NCBI GenBank assembly: GCA_010015805.1
Contig: ML978121.1
Span: 2,604,001-2,668,000 of the forward strand
Origin: Rhizodiscina lignyota
Lineage: Eukaryota
Direction: 5' to 3'
DNA length: 64,000 nucleotides
Shown: positions 45,998-53,483 of the stretch, one piece after another
How positions within the stretch are numbered: position 1 is the stretch's first letter
How the letters are laid out: every line of letters starts with the position of its first letter
Program-made: the position numbers and the translations under genes
The notes under the pieces: generated by a model
The model's input: only the letters and a program-made list of their open reading frames with translations
What the model was told of the DNA's origin: nothing
Database searches by the model: none

Positions 45998-46087
45998 TAG
46001 CAATGTAGACTACGAGCGCGTCGCGCATCGCGCAGGAGCCGTTACCCCTGAAGCTTTCAAGTATACTAACCAAAAACGGTTAGTACA
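45998..46087 (+). repeat. Left copy of a diverged ~90-bp direct repeat (partner at 53393-53483)
   Basis: tagcaat..tacga..tcgcgcaggagccgtt..cccct.aagc..caa.ta..ctaac.aaa.a.ggttag is shared with 53393-53483. It ends in the hairpin ctaacc-aaaaac-ggttag. Confidence 0.8.
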
Positions 46088-46277
46088 GCTCTCGATCACT
46101 GAGGTTAGACTGCGGCCACTCAAAGCTCGATTAGCGTTCATCTCAGACCTTGAATTACCAACCAGAGCAGCTCGCGCCCGTTACTTTCCTACCTTCATCT
46201 TGAAGGTTGTTGCTCTCAGCGAATGTATTCGGTAGCATTTGAAACGACAATCTGAAGCAATAATGATCGTTTGGAAA

Positions 46278-47810
46278 TCACGCGAAGCTAACAATACACC
46301 AACGCTCAACCCGCTTCGCAAACGCCTGGCAAGGGACATCCACGAGCCTCCAAAAGAAGTCCGCAATCCAAAAGAGCAACAGGACGACAAGCGGGAATCC
46401 AATTATCAGCCCAAATCTCACTGTGATGCTATAGCCCAAGCTATGTAATAGCGGGCCATGCATCAAATACATCGCAAAACTGATCTGCCCTAGATACCGG
46501 GCGACTGCACAGCTGAAGATCTTCTCAAGAAGGAACTCGTTACCAACCGACCAAACAATCATGATGGCGCCGAGGGACTGCCAATGTCGAACACTGTCAT
46601 CAATGGAAGCAAGCCATGCGTAGCCTGGAGCGGATTCGGCTTGCTGCACCGGAATCGAGACTAGAAAGAGGCCTGCGACGAAGATGGCGTGCCGAAGGAA
46701 ATGGCTTATGAGCGCTTTGCTACATCCAGGTACACTTCTTCGTCTTCTGGTGCTGCTTCGAGTTTCGTCATCGTACTCCATCGTCTTATACCCGCTTTCA
46801 CGTCGCGTTCTCCTTATTTGCATTAGCATGTCTCCTTCCGCCATCATCATGCCAGTAACAAACAGTCCCACTTCCCAACTCTGCGTTCTCAAGTGGACAG
46901 CATTCCACCAGTAGCAGTACAGCACCATCCCCACGCCAATGCCAAACAACCTAACACCAGCTTTTACCCTCGCAGTTCCCACCATGACCAGAAACAGTAA
47001 CATACTCGCTTTCCACTCAATGGCAATGGTCCACAGGTGGGAGTCGTAAGCGCAATCTATGATCTCCCATGTCCATGGATTTGCTAGTGCAATGGACACG
47101 AAGCGGAAATAATCCTGACATTGCTGCCAGAACGTGTCGAAGCGATATGGGTGCACCGGCACTTCTCCAGTCATCAGGCCATCGTCATAAGGGAAAGAAT
47201 ATAGGCGCAAACGCACTGCCACAAACACTAACAGCGAAGACGCGATGCTTGGCAGGAAGAGTCGCAAGCTGCGCCGAAAGACCGATGAGGACAAGGCATG
47301 CTGGAAGCGCTCCCAGTCTCGCTCATGGATGCATTTCAGTGGCTTCAGCGACAACGAATAGCCCGAGACGATGAAAAATATCGTCACCATAGCCGGTCCC
47401 GAATGTATGAGGCGAATGATGGGCAGCTGGATAAGTCGACTGCCGTAGCCGGCTGTCGTCAAAGGTCCATCCACGTCTCCTTCAAAGCGCTTGTGGTCAG
47501 CTAATGCATTGCAACAGCCATAACCATAATCCAGATCCGCAATCCATGGCTTCAGGTAATGTGAGACGAAGACAATGAATGCCGCCACTCCACGCAAACC
47601 GTCGAGGTATGTTGTTCTTCTTGAGTCTTCACCGGCCTTGCTGGTTGTAGGCGGCAGCGAGGATGCCTGAGAGCGCGATATCGTATCGGGGAGGAGACGT
47701 TGAAGCGGCGTTGGAAGTAAGAAAGTCCCAAATTTTTGTAAGGGCAGAAGAACGCTCTTGAGGGCTACAGAGCACGTTGTTGAAGGCCGAAACCTTTGCC
47801 TCTCTTCCAT
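46278..47810 (-). CDS. Acyltransferase family 3 (Acyl_transf_3) polytopic membrane O-acyltransferase
   Basis: YLDGLRGVAAFIVFVSH, FFIVSGYSLS, RRSLRLFLP, HLWTIAIEW and YLGQISFAMYLMH motifs; single exon. An alternative ATG lies at 47948. Confidence 0.9.
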   Translation of the reverse strand: MEERQRFRPSTTCSVALKSVLLPLQKFGTFLLPTPLQRLLPDTISRSQASSLPPTTSKAGEDSRRTTYLDGLRGVAAFIVFVSHYLKPWIADLDYGYGCCNALADHKRFEGDVDGPLTTAGYGSRLIQLPIIRLIHSGPAMVTIFFIVSGYSLSLKPLKCIHERDWERFQHALSSSVFRRSLRLFLPSIASSLLVFVAVRLRLYSFPYDDGLMTGEVPVHPYRFDTFWQQCQDYFRFVSIALANPWTWEIIDCAYDSHLWTIAIEWKASMLLFLVMVGTARVKAGVRLFGIGVGMVLYCYWWNAVHLRTQSWEVGLFVTGMMMAEGDMLMQIRRTRRESGYKTMEYDDETRSSTRRRRSVPGCSKALISHFLRHAIFVAGLFLVSIPVQQAESAPGYAWLASIDDSVRHWQSLGAIMIVWSVGNEFLLEKIFSCAVARYLGQISFAMYLMHGPLLHSLGYSITVRFGLIIGFPLVVLLLFWIADFFWRLVDVPCQAFAKRVERWCIVSFA

Positions 47811-48388
47811 TGATGCAAGTATCGAGCCGTTACTTGTAAAGACGAGTGGCTTGAGATGCTTTTTGGAATAGAGAATATAGCGAGTAAGTATAGGATAAGC
47901 TGAGAATCGCAGAGACCTTGAGGGAAGAAAGGACAATGAGCCACGCATCTTATGTATGTCCCAGTACAAGATCAGCCCCCGCTCACGTCATCTGTAGCCT
48001 CTCATACTAGTGTATCTGCGCACACCTCCTGCGTGCCCTGAAAACGGTGCAAGCAGATTGGTTGTCAATGCTTCGTTCATCTGGTCTCTTCTCTTTGACG
48101 AGGACAGGCAAATAGGAATACAATCCAAGCTCATGCAATGTATTAATTGCATCAACGTCAAAGAAATAAATCAACGAATATTCCATAAACTTGGCATTTC
48201 GCTTCATTGACAAATTACAATTGCAAATCCTTTGATTCCTTTTAACGAACGCTGTCCCTTTGACTCCGTTCTCTTGCCCTCCAACAACCTTTTCTGCCTC
48301 CTTACTACCACTCTACCACTGCCATTGTAGCCGCCTTATAACGATTTAGTCGGCTTTCATTTCAGTCCATGATATCAGAGAATGATTT

Positions 48389-51572: not shown

Positions 51573-52009
51573 GATTCTTGATGTGACCAAATGAGACAAT
51601 GAATGTAGACCTTGAGCAGACCAGTTTTCTACGACACTGAGGGTATCTCAAGGGCTAGAACATACTTCGGAGGTGAGAGGCCACAACCCTGGTACATGAT
51701 ATCTCTCTTGCCACTTCTCCTAGGTGCTCCATAGTGCTCACTCTGATATCAGCTGCGGTGGCGTCCCTCAGACCCATTGCTAACTCAGTGTTGGCTTACG
51801 TGATGTTGATGGCCATCACAATCCGCGAGCTCGGCCGAAGAGTGTTTGTTTTACGGATAATCTGTCTCCCAAGAAAATGATTGCCTATCAAAATGGTACT
51901 TAGGTAACGATCTGTTATTTCCAATTAGCCCCCATTACCAGCAGCACCTGAATCCCCTACCCTCCTTTCACAACGTCTCTCTTGGAAAGGATCTCTCGTT
52001 AGTATCAGA

Positions 52010-53333
52010 ATGTACGCAATTTTCCTTCTATTCTCCTTTGGAGTGACTTTTGCCGCCAGCCAACAATCATTCTCCGTAACGCAGCAGCGCAATCCCAATT
52101 TCATTAAAAACAGCCAGGCCGCCTTGGCCAAAGTGCAGCTCAGATATGTTGTCACTGGTTCAGTCGTGGCGTCACCGCAAGAATTTGACTCGGAGTACTT
52201 TTGCCCAGTCACAATCGGAGATCAAACATTGAACCTGGATTTCGATAGCGGCGCGACCGACCTGTAATGTGCTAGGGTCAAGCACTTAGATTGGTTCCTG
52301 ACTGACAACGTAAATATAGATGGGTTATCTCGACTGCCGTGGCCGACGCCCAGAATCATACGATATTCGATCCTACCAAATCCGAGACCTTTTATAACCT
52401 TAAAGGCTCCACCTTCAACACTTCTTTCCAAGAGGGATCTGGAGCGTCCGGGACGGTTGGAACAGACTCTATTTCTATCGGCAGTGTTACATCCCCAAAT
52501 CAAGCATTTGGAGTAGCAAATCTGATAAGCCAGCGGTTCAGTGAAGACACGCCGCTGAGTGGAATATTTGGTCTCGGTTTTCCATCCAGAGGAACAAGTA
52601 CTGACCTCAAATTCTGTGGCTGACCAAGAAATCTAATTGCACAACAGTTACGCCGAAAAAGCAAACGCCTTGGTTTTTTAATGTCTTATCGCACTTGGTC
52701 CAGCCTGTTTTCACTGCAGATTTGAAGCATGCGGCTCCAGGCAGCTACGACTTTGGTTTTATCGATCCGAAAAAGTATACCGGCCATATCGCATATGTTC
52801 CAAGAAATAGCAGTAGCGAAAGGTGGCAAATCGAATGCTCCGGTTTTGCAGTTGGAGATGCTCCGGTCCAGCCTGCTCCATTTCAGGTTGTACTAGGTAA
52901 GCTTGGCAGCTTGACCGAGGGATCTAGTGAACAAGCTGATATTTTCGGATTAAGACACTGGCTCGTCATTCCTGTTCCTAGATGATACTGTCGTTGAGTC
53001 GTATTATAAGCAGGTTAATGGGGCCCAAAACATCGCTGCGGAAGGTGGCTGGGTGTTTCCCTGCAATGCGACTCTGCCAGATATTAGCTTTCAGATCGGC
53101 TCGCACCTATCGATGCTCAATAAGGACTCTTTAATCTTCGAAGAACTCACAGCAACTAGTAAGAAACTAATGATCCATTTTCAACGGAACAAGTCTGATC
53201 TTGAACAGCCTGCTTCGGCGCGGTACAATCAAACGGAGGCGGAGCCAACGTATTCGGAGACACCTTTTTCAAGGAACAATTCGTGGTCTTTGACGCGGGG
53301 AGGGGCCGGATTGGTGTAGCAGACAAACATTAA
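52010..53333 (+). CDS. Secreted A1 aspartic protease (aspergillopepsin/penicillopepsin-like), multi-exon
   Basis: Signal peptide, EYFCPVTIG.QTLNLDFDSGATDLW, GIFGLGF, VFTADLK...PGSYDFGFID, second catalytic motif L|DTGSS, and C-terminus FGDTFFKEQFVVFD...IGVADKH*. Confidence 0.9.
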
Positions 53334-53392
53334 AGTTTGCTAGTAACCTTGATTTCGAAGTTTTCATGTTGTCGCCTGTGACAGGCCTTATG

Positions 53393-53483
53393 TAGCAATA
53401 TAAAGTACGAATACTTCGCGCAGGAGCCGTTTGCCGTTGCCCCCTAAAGCCTCCAAATACCCTAACTAAAGATGGTTAGCGCA
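53393..53483 (+). repeat. Right copy of the diverged direct repeat (partner at 45998-46087)
   Basis: tagcaatataaagtacgaatacttcgcgcaggagccgtt(tgccgtt)gccccctaaagcctccaaataccctaactaaagatggttag. Confidence 0.8.

What the first reader, a model, noticed from the sequence alone, without database searches (positions are those of the whole stretch)
45998..53483. Candidate new fungal RiPP (dikaritin-type) cluster: repeat precursor + DUF3328 oxidase + acyltransferase-3 + pepsin
Seen: four adjacent genes within 7.5 kb, namely a secreted multi-core precursor with KR-delimited repeats, a DUF3328 protein with both HxxHC motifs, a membrane acyltransferase and a secreted aspartic protease. Known: a Kex2-cleaved repeat precursor beside UstYa/DUF3328 defines dikaritin clusters (ustiloxin, phomopsin, asperipin-2a, victorin). 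The repeat contains none of the cores I recall for those (YAIG, YVIPID, FYYTGY, GLKLAF). There is no UstQ-type tyrosinase in the window, and I do not recognise this tailoring set. Inference: the cluster makes an undescribed oxidatively cyclised and possibly acylated peptide. All four products are predicted to enter the secretory pathway, which fits a shared route.
Basis: partly seen in the sequence, partly recalled or inferred. Interest (0 to 1): 0.95.

Follow-up and report, generated by a model that had tools for sequence, protein, structure and literature searches.

The report
Uncharacterised fungal UstYa peptide gene pair
A wood fungus carries a secreted repeat-peptide gene next to a copper oxidase of the ustiloxin type, so it probably makes an undescribed cyclic peptide, but this is one more case of a common, known kind of gene cluster.

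Summary
They are an AT3 acyltransferase (Pfam 8e-19), a signal-peptide precursor with 22-residue units ending in KR or RR, a UstYa/DUF3328 gene (Pfam 1e-40, both HxxHC motifs, one membrane helix) and an aspergillopepsin-type protease. The UstYa model is 100% identical to a hypothetical protein of Rhizodiscina lignyota.

The seven complete repeat units differ at 21 nucleotide sites, and only 2 of these change the peptide. The sequence DPIDPHGPAIGYEDLE is therefore under selection. A 140-N run inside the array leaves the copy number open (at least 8).

The precursor is absent from the protein collections I searched. Its only credible relative is a lichen-fungus protein that shares KR-DPxDPxGxxxGY.

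I read the precursor and UstYa as a real, uncharacterised dikaritin-like pair. I could not test whether the acyltransferase and the protease belong to it. No fungal genomes or RNA runs were reachable, no promoter words were shared, and the 52%-identical metagenome relatives lack both genes. One metagenome UstYa cluster does contain a pepsin.

A 2020 survey counted 1758 repeat precursors near DUF3328 genes. This is a new member of a known kind and of moderate interest.

The parts
46278..47948 (-). AT3-family membrane acyltransferase: a single ORF of 556 codons from the first ATG. A later Met, at codon 47, is a possible true start. Cluster membership is unproven.
   Evidence: PF01757 at E 8.2e-19 over profile 3-325/326. 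ORF coordinates. At least 5 hydrophobic segments and Met47.
48389..49075 (-). Precursor exon 2, including the stop codon. It reads DGGLARR, then 22-residue units DPIDPHGPAIGYEDLE[D/V/G]KKV[K/R]R, then the tail DPIVEPFEPVRA.
   Evidence: Translations. The frame is open on both sides of the N run. 19 of 21 variable nucleotide sites among 7 units are synonymous in this frame.
48418..49058 (-). 66-nt tandem repeat array, reported as two TRF rows split by the N run.
   Evidence: TRF: 48712-49058 has 5.3 copies at 90% matches (score 526), and 48418-48571 has 2.3 copies at 84% (score 217).
48572..48711 (.). Run of 140 N inside the repeat array. It leaves the copy number unknown.
   Evidence: With the adjacent base it spans 47 codons. 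A whole number of 22-codon units would need 14+22n hidden codons (my arithmetic).
49076..49143 (-). Precursor intron, 68 nt, with GTAAGA at the donor, a CTGAT branch-like site and an AG acceptor.
   Evidence: Sequence. Splicing is needed to join the signal-peptide exon in frame to the repeats.
49144..49218 (-). Precursor exon 1: signal peptide MRFEQIVSVLALAGGFAFA followed by KPINPQ.
   Evidence: for the translation. The cleavage site after AFA is my reading by the A-x-A rule and was not computed.
50606..51572 (-). UstYa/DUF3328 gene with 4 exons (51572-51338, 51284-51123, 51068-50871, 50796-50606 including the stop). It equals NCBI NA57DRAFT_70820 of Rhizodiscina lignyota.
   Evidence: Exon mapping to P0001. 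100% identity. PF11807 at E 1.1e-40. HSLHC167, HIDHC197 and a TM helix at 40-62. Both motifs are conserved in the alignment of 15 relatives.
51573..52009 (.). 437-bp intergenic region shared by the divergently transcribed UstYa and pepsin genes.
   Evidence: Start codons at 51572 (minus strand) and 52010 (plus strand). No sequence words are shared with the other two upstream regions beyond chance.
52010..53333 (+). Secreted A1 aspartic protease of the aspergillopepsin type, with several exons. Cluster membership is unproven.
   Evidence: PF00026 on three exon ORFs. DSG and DTG motifs and the C-terminal stop. The best solved relative of the exon tested is aspergillopepsin 1ibq at E 9.9e-20. Hydrophobic N-terminus.

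Best explanation
The precursor gene and the neighbouring UstYa gene form a real, uncharacterised RiPP pair of the dikaritin or epichloecyclin kind in Rhizodiscina lignyota.

Proposed route:
1. The precursor enters the ER through its signal peptide (inferred).
2. In the secretory lumen, the membrane-anchored two-copper oxidase UstYa oxidises a C-H bond and cross-links it to the single Tyr (position 12) of each unit. This is inferred from family knowledge.
3. Kex2 cuts after each KR or RR. This releases at least 8 copies of DPIDPHGPAIGYEDLE..., and Kex1 trims the basic tail (inferred from the sites).
4. The conserved N-terminal 12-16 residues carry the core, and the variable C-terminal part is a follower that is removed, as in epichloecyclins (inferred).

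The residue that pairs with Tyr is unresolved. Ile10 is the ustiloxin/phomopsin-like candidate, but the only relative has Ser at that position.

The acyltransferase and the pepsin are neighbours whose participation is unproven. My odds are about 0.35 that the pepsin removes the follower and about 0.2 that the AT3 acylates the product in the lumen.
For: Shown:
- The UstYa gene is intact. It matches PF11807 at E 1.1e-40. It has both HxxHC motifs, a single TM helix at 40-62 and further lumenal Cys residues.
- This architecture matches CctR. That paper shows CctR to be a membrane-anchored, dimeric, O2-dependent enzyme that binds two coppers through HxxHC(x)nHxxHC (PMC12435403, abstract and passages).
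- The precursor has a signal-peptide exon joined by a canonical intron.
- It has 7 complete plus partial units, each ending in KR or RR.
- The repeats are under purifying selection. Of 21 variable nucleotide sites among 7 units, 19 are synonymous, and pairwise codon differences are 176 synonymous against 22 non-synonymous. Residues 1-16 never change, although 15 of the 16 codons vary.
- It is the only repeat-peptide ORF of this kind among 976 ORFs of 40 aa or more in the window. The UstYa gene carries the window's only pair of HxxHC motifs.
- The window shows no NRPS- or PKS-sized ORF that could offer another substrate. The largest ORF is 858 aa and is a HET-domain protein.
- One relative, P0017 from a Pyrenodesmia lichen-fungus MAG, keeps KR-DPxDPxGxxxGY and varies only after the Tyr.

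From the literature:
- DUF3328 genes peak at the position adjacent to repeat-precursor genes. 65.6% of repeats accompanied by DUF3328 contain Tyr (PMC7329392, passages).
- One DUF3328 gene is enough for asperipin-2a (same passages) and for epichloecyclins (PMC10540207, passages).
Against: - No product, expression or knockout data exist.
- Linkage of this precursor type with UstYa could not be shown to be conserved.
- The three loci with the closest metagenome UstYa relatives (L002, L003, L005, 52% identity) showed no repeat precursor in up to 10 kb of flank. These loci are AT-rich (GC 0.34-0.39) and have only 4 ORFs of 100 aa or more each.
- The motif DP.DP.G...GY was found in 0 of the 10 metagenome loci.
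- The gene is interrupted by an N run, so its integrity across that stretch is unverified.
- The similarity to P0017 rests on one short motif repeated five times. The E-values (1.2e-20 and 2e-21) therefore overstate independent evidence, and convergence is possible.
- DUF3328 enzymes also hydroxylate and halogenate non-ribosomal peptides, so the family does not by itself imply macrocyclisation.
Confidence: 0.65

Rival explanations
1. This is the four-gene cluster the first reader proposed. UstYa cyclises the peptide, the co-located aspergillopepsin-type protease trims the follower, and the AT3 enzyme carries an acyl group across the Golgi or ER membrane onto the peptide. The product is an acylated cyclic RiPP.
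For: - The four genes are contiguous, with short spacers of 440, 1387 and 437 bp (coordinates).
- UstYa and the pepsin are divergent and share one 437-bp intergenic region.
- All four products have a signal peptide or membrane segments, so their topology fits a shared lumenal route.
- In the 10 metagenome loci with UstYa relatives, a pepsin of the same Pfam family sits inside one UstYa cluster, L001. That locus has three UstYa-like genes plus a 2OG oxygenase.
Against: - AT3 was found in 0 of the 10 related loci and a pepsin in 1 of 10. Only 5 loci exceed 9 kb.
- The L001 pepsin is only 29-39% identical to the window's exons. That is ordinary for paralogous fungal pepsins (my knowledge).
- The exon tested scores about as well against generic aspergillopepsin.
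- The three upstream regions share no 8-mers or longer, and their 5 shared 7-mers are within the shuffle range (maximum 8).
- No paper in the searched library links DUF3328 with AT3 or aspartic proteases in a RiPP cluster.
- The spacers are normal for fungal gene density (my knowledge).
Confidence: 0.15
2. The repeat protein is an ordinary Kex2-processed repeat protein that yields linear secreted peptides, for signalling or as effector-like molecules. The UstYa gene beside it acts on something else.
For: - 78% of surveyed Kex2-processed repeat proteins have no DUF3328 gene nearby, and many are linear peptides such as pheromones (PMC7329392).
- The nearest look-alike clusters in the ESM Atlas include yeast alpha-factor precursors, but at scores of 0.76-0.80, which is below the level that carries weight.
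- The close UstYa relatives in L002, L003 and L005 have no visible repeat precursor.
Against: - The two genes are direct neighbours on the same strand, and the survey finds the DUF3328 count highest at exactly that position.
- The unit holds one invariant Tyr.
- The Trp and Cys residues that I recall for ascomycete alpha-type pheromones are absent from the unit.
- No other candidate substrate gene is in the window.
Confidence: 0.12
3. The precursor is a decaying or misassembled repeat, and no peptide is made.
For: - An N run interrupts the array, and its length does not fit the repeat period.
- The protein is absent from both protein collections searched.
Against: - The frame is open for all 181 visible codons on both sides of the N run.
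- The intron is canonical.
- Variation between units is almost purely synonymous, which decay would not produce.
Confidence: 0.05

Closest known systems
Asperipin-2a cluster (AprA precursor with a single DUF3328 protein AprY, Aspergillus flavus)
   Same: A signal-peptide precursor with Kex2-delimited repeats, a Tyr-containing core and only one DUF3328 gene. The survey text states that one DUF3328 protein serves asperipin-2a (PMC7329392).
   Different: The core FYYTGY (recalled, and quoted in the finding) is absent here. This unit has one Tyr in a 16-residue constrained stretch rich in Pro, Asp and Gly. I could not compare UstYa with AprY because no AprY sequence was available to the tools. That asperipin-2a needs no tyrosinase or methyltransferase is from my memory, not from a call.
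Epichloecyclins (GigA precursor, DUF3328 protein GigB, Epichloe festucae)
   Same: The units are released by Kexin, with the core at the N-terminus followed by a follower peptide. There is a single conserved Tyr and a single DUF3328 cyclase (PMC10540207, passages). Here too the variable positions lie after the Tyr, both in this precursor and in P0017.
   Different: GigA cores are 8-9 residues (INFKIPYT and similar) with Tyr at position 7 and a dimethylated Lys. That cluster also has a SET methyltransferase and its own kexin. Neither gene was found here. In this precursor Tyr is at position 12, and no Lys lies in the constrained part.
Ustiloxin and phomopsin clusters (classical dikaritins)
   Same: A Kex2-processed repeat precursor plus UstYa-family oxidases with two HxxHC motifs (PMC7329392).
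   Different: Those clusters use 2 and 5 DUF3328 proteins respectively and also need a tyrosinase. Here there is one UstYa gene and no tyrosinase in the ORFs scanned. The cores YAIG and YVIPID are absent. The unit contains AIGY, which has the same four residues as YAIG in another order; I do not treat this as evidence.
CctR (cyclochlorotine hydroxylase, the biochemically characterised DUF3328 enzyme)
   Same: An N-terminal region, one TM helix (CctR 38-59; here 40-62), a lumenal helical domain with HxxHC(x)nHxxHC, and further Cys residues.
   Different: CctR hydroxylates a non-ribosomal cyclic peptide. Here the only nearby substrate candidate is ribosomal. Copper binding and dimer formation were not tested for this protein.
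P0017 (KAL8921428.1, hypothetical protein of a Pyrenodesmia sp. lichen-fungus MAG)
   Same: It is the only credible relative among the 21 hits in 1.84 billion representatives. It has a signal-like N-terminus, 5 units that share KR-DPxDPxGxxxGY, and a tail that also begins with DP.
   Different: Its units are 19 residues rather than 22 and read DPQDPDGRGSGYQTTALKR. Positions 3, 6, 8-10 and the follower differ. Its genomic neighbours could not be seen.

Membership tests
UstYa / DUF3328 (PF11807) | Match to the Pfam model above the gathering score | tested here: met
   140.2 bits against a cut-off of 25, E 1.1e-40, profile 9-218/220.
UstYa / DUF3328 (PF11807) | Two HxxHC motifs, HxxHC(x)nHxxHC | tested here: met
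   HSLHC at 167 and HIDHC at 197. In the alignment of 15 relatives the first motif is kept apart from one Tyr at its first His. The second is kept in 13 of the 14 full-length sequences.
UstYa / DUF3328 (PF11807) | Single N-terminal TM helix with a lumenal C-terminal domain that holds Cys residues | tested here: met
   One Kyte-Doolittle segment at 40-62 and Cys residues at 171, 201, 211, 239, 255 and 260. The orientation is inferred by analogy with CctR.
UstYa / DUF3328 (PF11807) | Binuclear copper binding and O2-dependent catalysis | not testable with these tools
   Shown only for CctR (PMC12435403).
Dikaritin-type RiPP cluster (ust-RiPS) | Precursor with a signal peptide and repeated cores delimited by Kex2 (KR/RR) sites | tested here: met
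   The signal peptide was judged by eye and by hydrophobic content; no SignalP run was made.
Dikaritin-type RiPP cluster (ust-RiPS) | A DUF3328 gene close to the precursor gene | tested here: met
   They are adjacent genes on the same strand, 1387 bp apart.
Dikaritin-type RiPP cluster (ust-RiPS) | Tyr in the repeated core | tested here: met
   One invariant Tyr at position 12 in 7 of 7 complete units.
Dikaritin-type RiPP cluster (ust-RiPS) | Tyrosinase (UstQ type) and methyltransferase, as in ustiloxin and phomopsin | tested here: not met
   No PF00264 or methyltransferase hit in 40 large ORFs across the window or in 116 ORFs from 35.7 to 64 kb. [quoted passage not shown]
Dikaritin-type RiPP cluster (ust-RiPS) | Product with a Tyr side-chain ether (or similar) macrocycle | not testable with these tools
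   This needs chemistry.
Dikaritin-type RiPP cluster (ust-RiPS) | Conserved linkage or co-expression of the cluster genes | tested here: inconclusive
   No fungal genomes could be reached and no RNA run is listed. The metagenome loci with the closest relatives are gene-poor.
Acyl_transf_3 (PF01757) | Pfam match and a multi-pass membrane protein | tested here: met
   68.3 bits against a cut-off of 31, and at least 5 hydrophobic segments. The acceptor substrate was not tested.
Peptidase A1 (pepsin family, PF00026) | Pfam match and two catalytic Asp motifs | tested here: met
   Three exon ORFs match. DSG and DTG motifs are in the translation. The closest solved structure to the exon tested is aspergillopepsin.

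The most novel reading that the evidence does not exclude
This may be a new subclass of UstYa-dependent fungal RiPPs. The core would be a long (12-16 residue) Pro/Asp/Gly-rich peptide, DPxDPxGxxxGY, shared between a dothideomycete and a lichen fungus and cross-linked through its single Tyr. A dedicated aspartic protease would trim it, and an AT3 membrane acyltransferase would O-acylate it inside the secretory pathway. As far as my searches show, that would be the first acylated fungal RiPP and the first AT3 enzyme with a peptide substrate.
Probability: 0.1. Interest if true: 0.75.

Novelty: new member of a known kind. Interest (0 to 1): 0.4.

Why it matters
Few UstYa-dependent fungal peptide families have known products. 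The ones met in my reading are ustiloxins, phomopsins, asperipin-2a, victorin and epichloecyclins. Thousands of predicted precursor/DUF3328 pairs remain untested.

This pair has three useful properties:
- It is compact, with one oxidase and one precursor.
- The selection signal on the peptide is unusually clear.
- The core resembles none of the described cores I could compare, so it is a clean candidate for heterologous expression.

It also shows that such precursors can be missing from public protein sets when an assembly gap lies inside the repeat. If the acyltransferase or the protease proved to take part, that would add new tailoring chemistry to fungal RiPPs. My evidence does not establish that.

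Tried and rejected
- **Precursor search, 5.8-billion-protein index.** No hit at E 0.01 or better among 8000 scored candidates of 125-399 aa. Longer and shorter proteins were not searched there.
- **Other hits of the representatives search.** 20 of the 21 hits are repeat or low-complexity look-alikes. 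I read 10 and screened the other 11 by motif. None has DP.DP, and the 9 look-alikes I read lack units set off by KR sites.
- **ESM Atlas look-alikes.** The best score was 0.80, below the level that carries weight.
- **Complex prediction, UstYa lumenal domain with two precursor units.** No verdict. This is not evidence either way.
- **RNA runs.** No RNA holder is listed. One holder of unknown kind carries the DNA. I did not lay its contigs, because they could not show expression.
- **Shared promoter words among the three upstream regions.** None of 8 nt or more. There were five shared 7-mers against a shuffle mean of 2.7 and a maximum of 8.
- **Whole genome.** None is held for this window.
- **Record behind L001.** It is not held, so I could not look for a precursor beyond 11.9 kb.
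- **Supplements of PMC7329392.** The unit's motifs were not found. The positive controls YAIG and FYYTGY were not found either, so these files hold no sequences and the blank means nothing.
- **Pfam on the precursor.** Nothing above any cut-off.
- **Alpha-type sex pheromone precursor.** Considered and rejected. The unit has no Trp or Cys, which is what I recall of those pheromones, and pheromone-type repeat proteins are almost never beside DUF3328 genes.
- **Placing UstYa relative to the characterised enzymes** (UstYa/Yb, AprY, PhomY, VicY, GigB).

Full report
**Organism and setting.** The spliced UstYa model from the window is 100% identical to the 261-aa NCBI protein NA57DRAFT_70820 of Rhizodiscina lignyota. 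This species is a dothideomycete of the order Aulographales. No whole genome is held for the window.

The genes around the finding, from Pfam scans, are:

| Gene | Coordinates | Strand |
|---|---|---|
| Homeobox gene | 44131-45198 | + |
| AT3 acyltransferase | 46278-47948 | - |
| Repeat precursor | 48389-49218 | - |
| UstYa | 50606-51572 | - |
| Pepsin | 52010 to about 53333 | + |
| Amino-acid permease | 54304-55857 | - |
| Zn2Cys6 regulator | 58244-60015 | + |

**The observation.** All four genes are real.
- The acyltransferase ORF matches PF01757 at E 8.2e-19 over nearly the whole profile. It has at least five hydrophobic segments.
- The UstYa gene has four exons that reproduce P0001 exactly. 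It matches PF11807 at E 1.1e-40. It has one hydrophobic helix at residues 40-62, HSLHC at 167 and HIDHC at 197. Both motifs are conserved in an alignment with 14 relatives.
- The pepsin matches PF00026 on three exon ORFs. It shows DSG and DTG motifs and a hydrophobic N-terminus. The exon I tested is closest among solved structures to aspergillopepsin (1ibq, E 9.9e-20).
- The precursor has a 25-residue first exon, MRFEQIVSVLALAGGFAFAKPINPQ, and a 68-nt GT-AG intron. Its second exon opens with DGGLARR and then repeats a 22-residue unit.
- Tandem Repeats Finder reports a 66-nt period, with 5.3 copies at 90% matches and 2.3 copies at 84%.

**The gap in the repeat array.** A run of 140 N at 48572-48711 sits inside the array. 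It spans 47 codons, but a whole number of units would need 14+22n hidden codons. The gap length is therefore not the true length. The copy number is at least 8 and is otherwise unknown.

**Is the repeat a coding sequence under selection?** Among the seven complete units, 21 nucleotide sites vary. Nineteen of these are synonymous in the proposed frame: 18 at third positions and one Leu first position. Two change the peptide, at positions 17 (D/V/G) and 21 (K/R). Pairwise codon differences are 176 synonymous against 22 non-synonymous. Residues 1-16, DPIDPHGPAIGYEDLE, never change, although 15 of their 16 codons vary.

This identifies the reading frame, because two other frames of the same DNA are also open for 87 codons. 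It also argues against decay or very recent duplication. The constrained stretch is much longer than the 4-6-residue cores of the classical dikaritins.

**Relatives of the precursor.** The 5.8-billion-protein index gave nothing at E 0.01 or better for proteins of 125-399 aa. A full HMMER pass over 1.84 billion representatives gave 21 hits at E 0.001 or better.
- Only one hit, P0017, has the unit's features. I read 10 of the hits and screened the other 11 by motif.
- P0017 is a 181-aa hypothetical protein from a Pyrenodesmia sp. lichen-fungus MAG. It has a signal-like N-terminus and five units reading DPQDPDGRGSGYQ(PTY/TTS/TTA)LKR.
- The shared pattern is KR-DPxDPxGxxxGY. In P0017 the variable positions again lie after the Tyr.
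- The E-values (1.2e-20 and 2e-21) are inflated because one short motif is counted five times. Homology is likely but not certain.
- Neither search returned the window's own protein. The precursor is therefore not in these collections, probably because the gap breaks the gene model.

**Relatives of UstYa.** Sixteen proteins scored E 1e-10 or better. The closest are hypothetical proteins from Trichoglossum hirsutum (54%), Glutinoglossum americanum (56%), Stipitochalara longipes (48%), Penicilliopsis zonata (47%), Pochonia chlamydosporia (45%) and Penicillium brasilianum (43%). A truncated paralogue lies elsewhere in R. lignyota (P0014). None has a functional name.

**Linkage in other genomes.** No fungal genomes could be reached. 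One metagenome scan with the UstYa alignment gave 10 loci.
- The motif DP.DP.G...GY occurs in none of them.
- tblastn with the window's AT3, precursor, pepsin exons, homeobox gene and permease hit only the pepsin exons, and only in L001, at 29-39% identity.
- L001 is a different cluster. It has three UstYa-like genes, a 2OG-Fe(II) oxygenase and an A1 protease between them. An aspartic protease inside a UstYa cluster therefore recurs once.
- L006 carries an RR-delimited 12-residue repeat (NADEAYTIERRG) 1.8 kb from a 38%-identical UstYa relative. This is another precursor/UstYa pair with a different core.
- The three loci with 52%-identical relatives (L002, L003, L005) are AT-rich (GC 0.34-0.39). 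Each has only four ORFs of 100 aa or more, and none shows a repeat precursor, an AT3 or a pepsin. This counts mildly against conserved linkage, but gene-poor DNA tells us little.

**Expression.** No RNA run is listed, so co-expression is untested. The three upstream regions share no words of 8 nt or more, and their shared 7-mers are within the shuffle range.

**How it most likely works.** The family background comes from papers of which I read the abstract and passages.
- CctR, a DUF3328 protein, is a membrane-anchored homodimer with a cytosolic N-terminus and a lumenal helical domain. It binds two coppers through HxxHC(x)nHxxHC, and it needs O2 and electrons (PMC12435403).
- DUF3328 proteins are required to cyclise ustiloxins, asperipin-2a and phomopsins, through ether bonds to Tyr (PMC7329392).
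- GigB cyclises epichloecyclins through the conserved Tyr. In that system the core lies at the N-terminus of each kexin-released unit, followed by a follower peptide (PMC10540207).

P0001 has every sequence feature of this family. Each precursor unit offers one invariant Tyr. The architecture of a constrained N-terminal part and a variable C-terminal part resembles GigA.

I therefore propose the following route:
1. The precursor is imported into the ER.
2. UstYa cross-links or oxidises the peptide at or near Tyr12 in the lumen.
3. Kex2 cuts after KR or RR, and Kex1 trims the basic tail.
4. The follower EDLE.KKV is removed.

Only the sequence features are shown; every chemical step is inferred. 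Ile10 would give a ring with the i/i+2 spacing recalled for ustiloxin and phomopsin. However, P0017 has Ser at that position, so the partner residue is open.

**The acyltransferase and the pepsin.**
- In favour: they are direct neighbours, the pepsin shares a 437-bp divergent intergenic region with UstYa, their topology fits a lumenal route, and a pepsin is present in L001.
- Against: I found no conservation, no shared promoter words and no literature precedent. The pepsin belongs to the common aspergillopepsin type, which fungi have in several copies (my knowledge).
- My odds are about 0.35 for the pepsin and about 0.2 for the AT3.

**Comparison with what is known, and novelty.** The pair meets the sequence-level criteria of a ustiloxin-type (dikaritin) cluster, apart from the tyrosinase and methyltransferase. 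Neither was found, and not every member has them.

None of the papers returned by my searches describes this core or this gene set. For most of them I saw only the listing or the abstract. Subscription journals are not covered. The survey's supplements hold no sequences, as the failed positive control shows.

The kind itself is common. The survey found 7878 Kex2-processed repeat proteins in 1461 strains. Of these, 1758 have DUF3328 genes nearby, and 2560 are stand-alone types without homologues.

**Verdict.** This is a new, rare-type member of a known kind. It is a good candidate for expression but not a surprise.

Noticed in passing
L001:788-8488: A metagenome contig carries three UstYa-like genes (about 800-1894 on the plus strand, about 3718-4908 on the plus strand, 7337-8488 on the minus strand). 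It also carries a 2OG-Fe(II) oxygenase (1926-2519, minus strand) and an A1 aspartic protease (5813-7252, plus strand). No KR-delimited repeat precursor is visible. A small signal-peptide ORF at 9365-9613 (MKWAVIFAFATLALGASAAAVPAEAAEAVPEALYISPIKYAEFEEDA) could be a single-core precursor.
   Followed up: partly
L006:3-233 and L006:2007-2694: An RR-delimited 12-residue repeat (NADEAYTIERRG, about 6 copies, cut by the contig end) lies 1.8 kb from a 38%-identical UstYa relative. This is another uncharacterised precursor/UstYa pair with a Tyr core.
   Followed up: no
window 48572-48711: The assembly has a 140-N run inside the precursor's repeat array. The precursor protein is absent from both protein collections searched, so annotation-based RiPP mining would probably miss this locus.
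   Followed up: partly
window 37000-44100: About 7 kb has many ORFs of 75-200 aa on both strands, and none reaches a Pfam family at E 0.001. The stretch may be genes of unknown function or non-coding DNA just upstream of the homeobox gene.
   Followed up: no
window 5956-8529 and 28740-29990: A HET-domain ORF (858 aa) and a HeLo-domain ORF (417 aa), both heterokaryon-incompatibility or cell-death-type genes, lie in the same 64-kb window. The window also holds a P450 (26024-27472) and a half-size ABC transporter (13216-15693).
   Followed up: no
window 23387-24016 (-): This ORF has a His/Ser-rich low-complexity stretch (SHASHASHASHHSHHSHHSHH...) and no Pfam match.
   Followed up: no
P0014 (not in the window): R. 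lignyota has a second UstYa-family protein on another contig (NA57DRAFT_58845). It is 197 aa and 46% identical, and it ends before the second HxxHC motif in the alignment. It may be a truncated model or a pseudogene.
   Followed up: no
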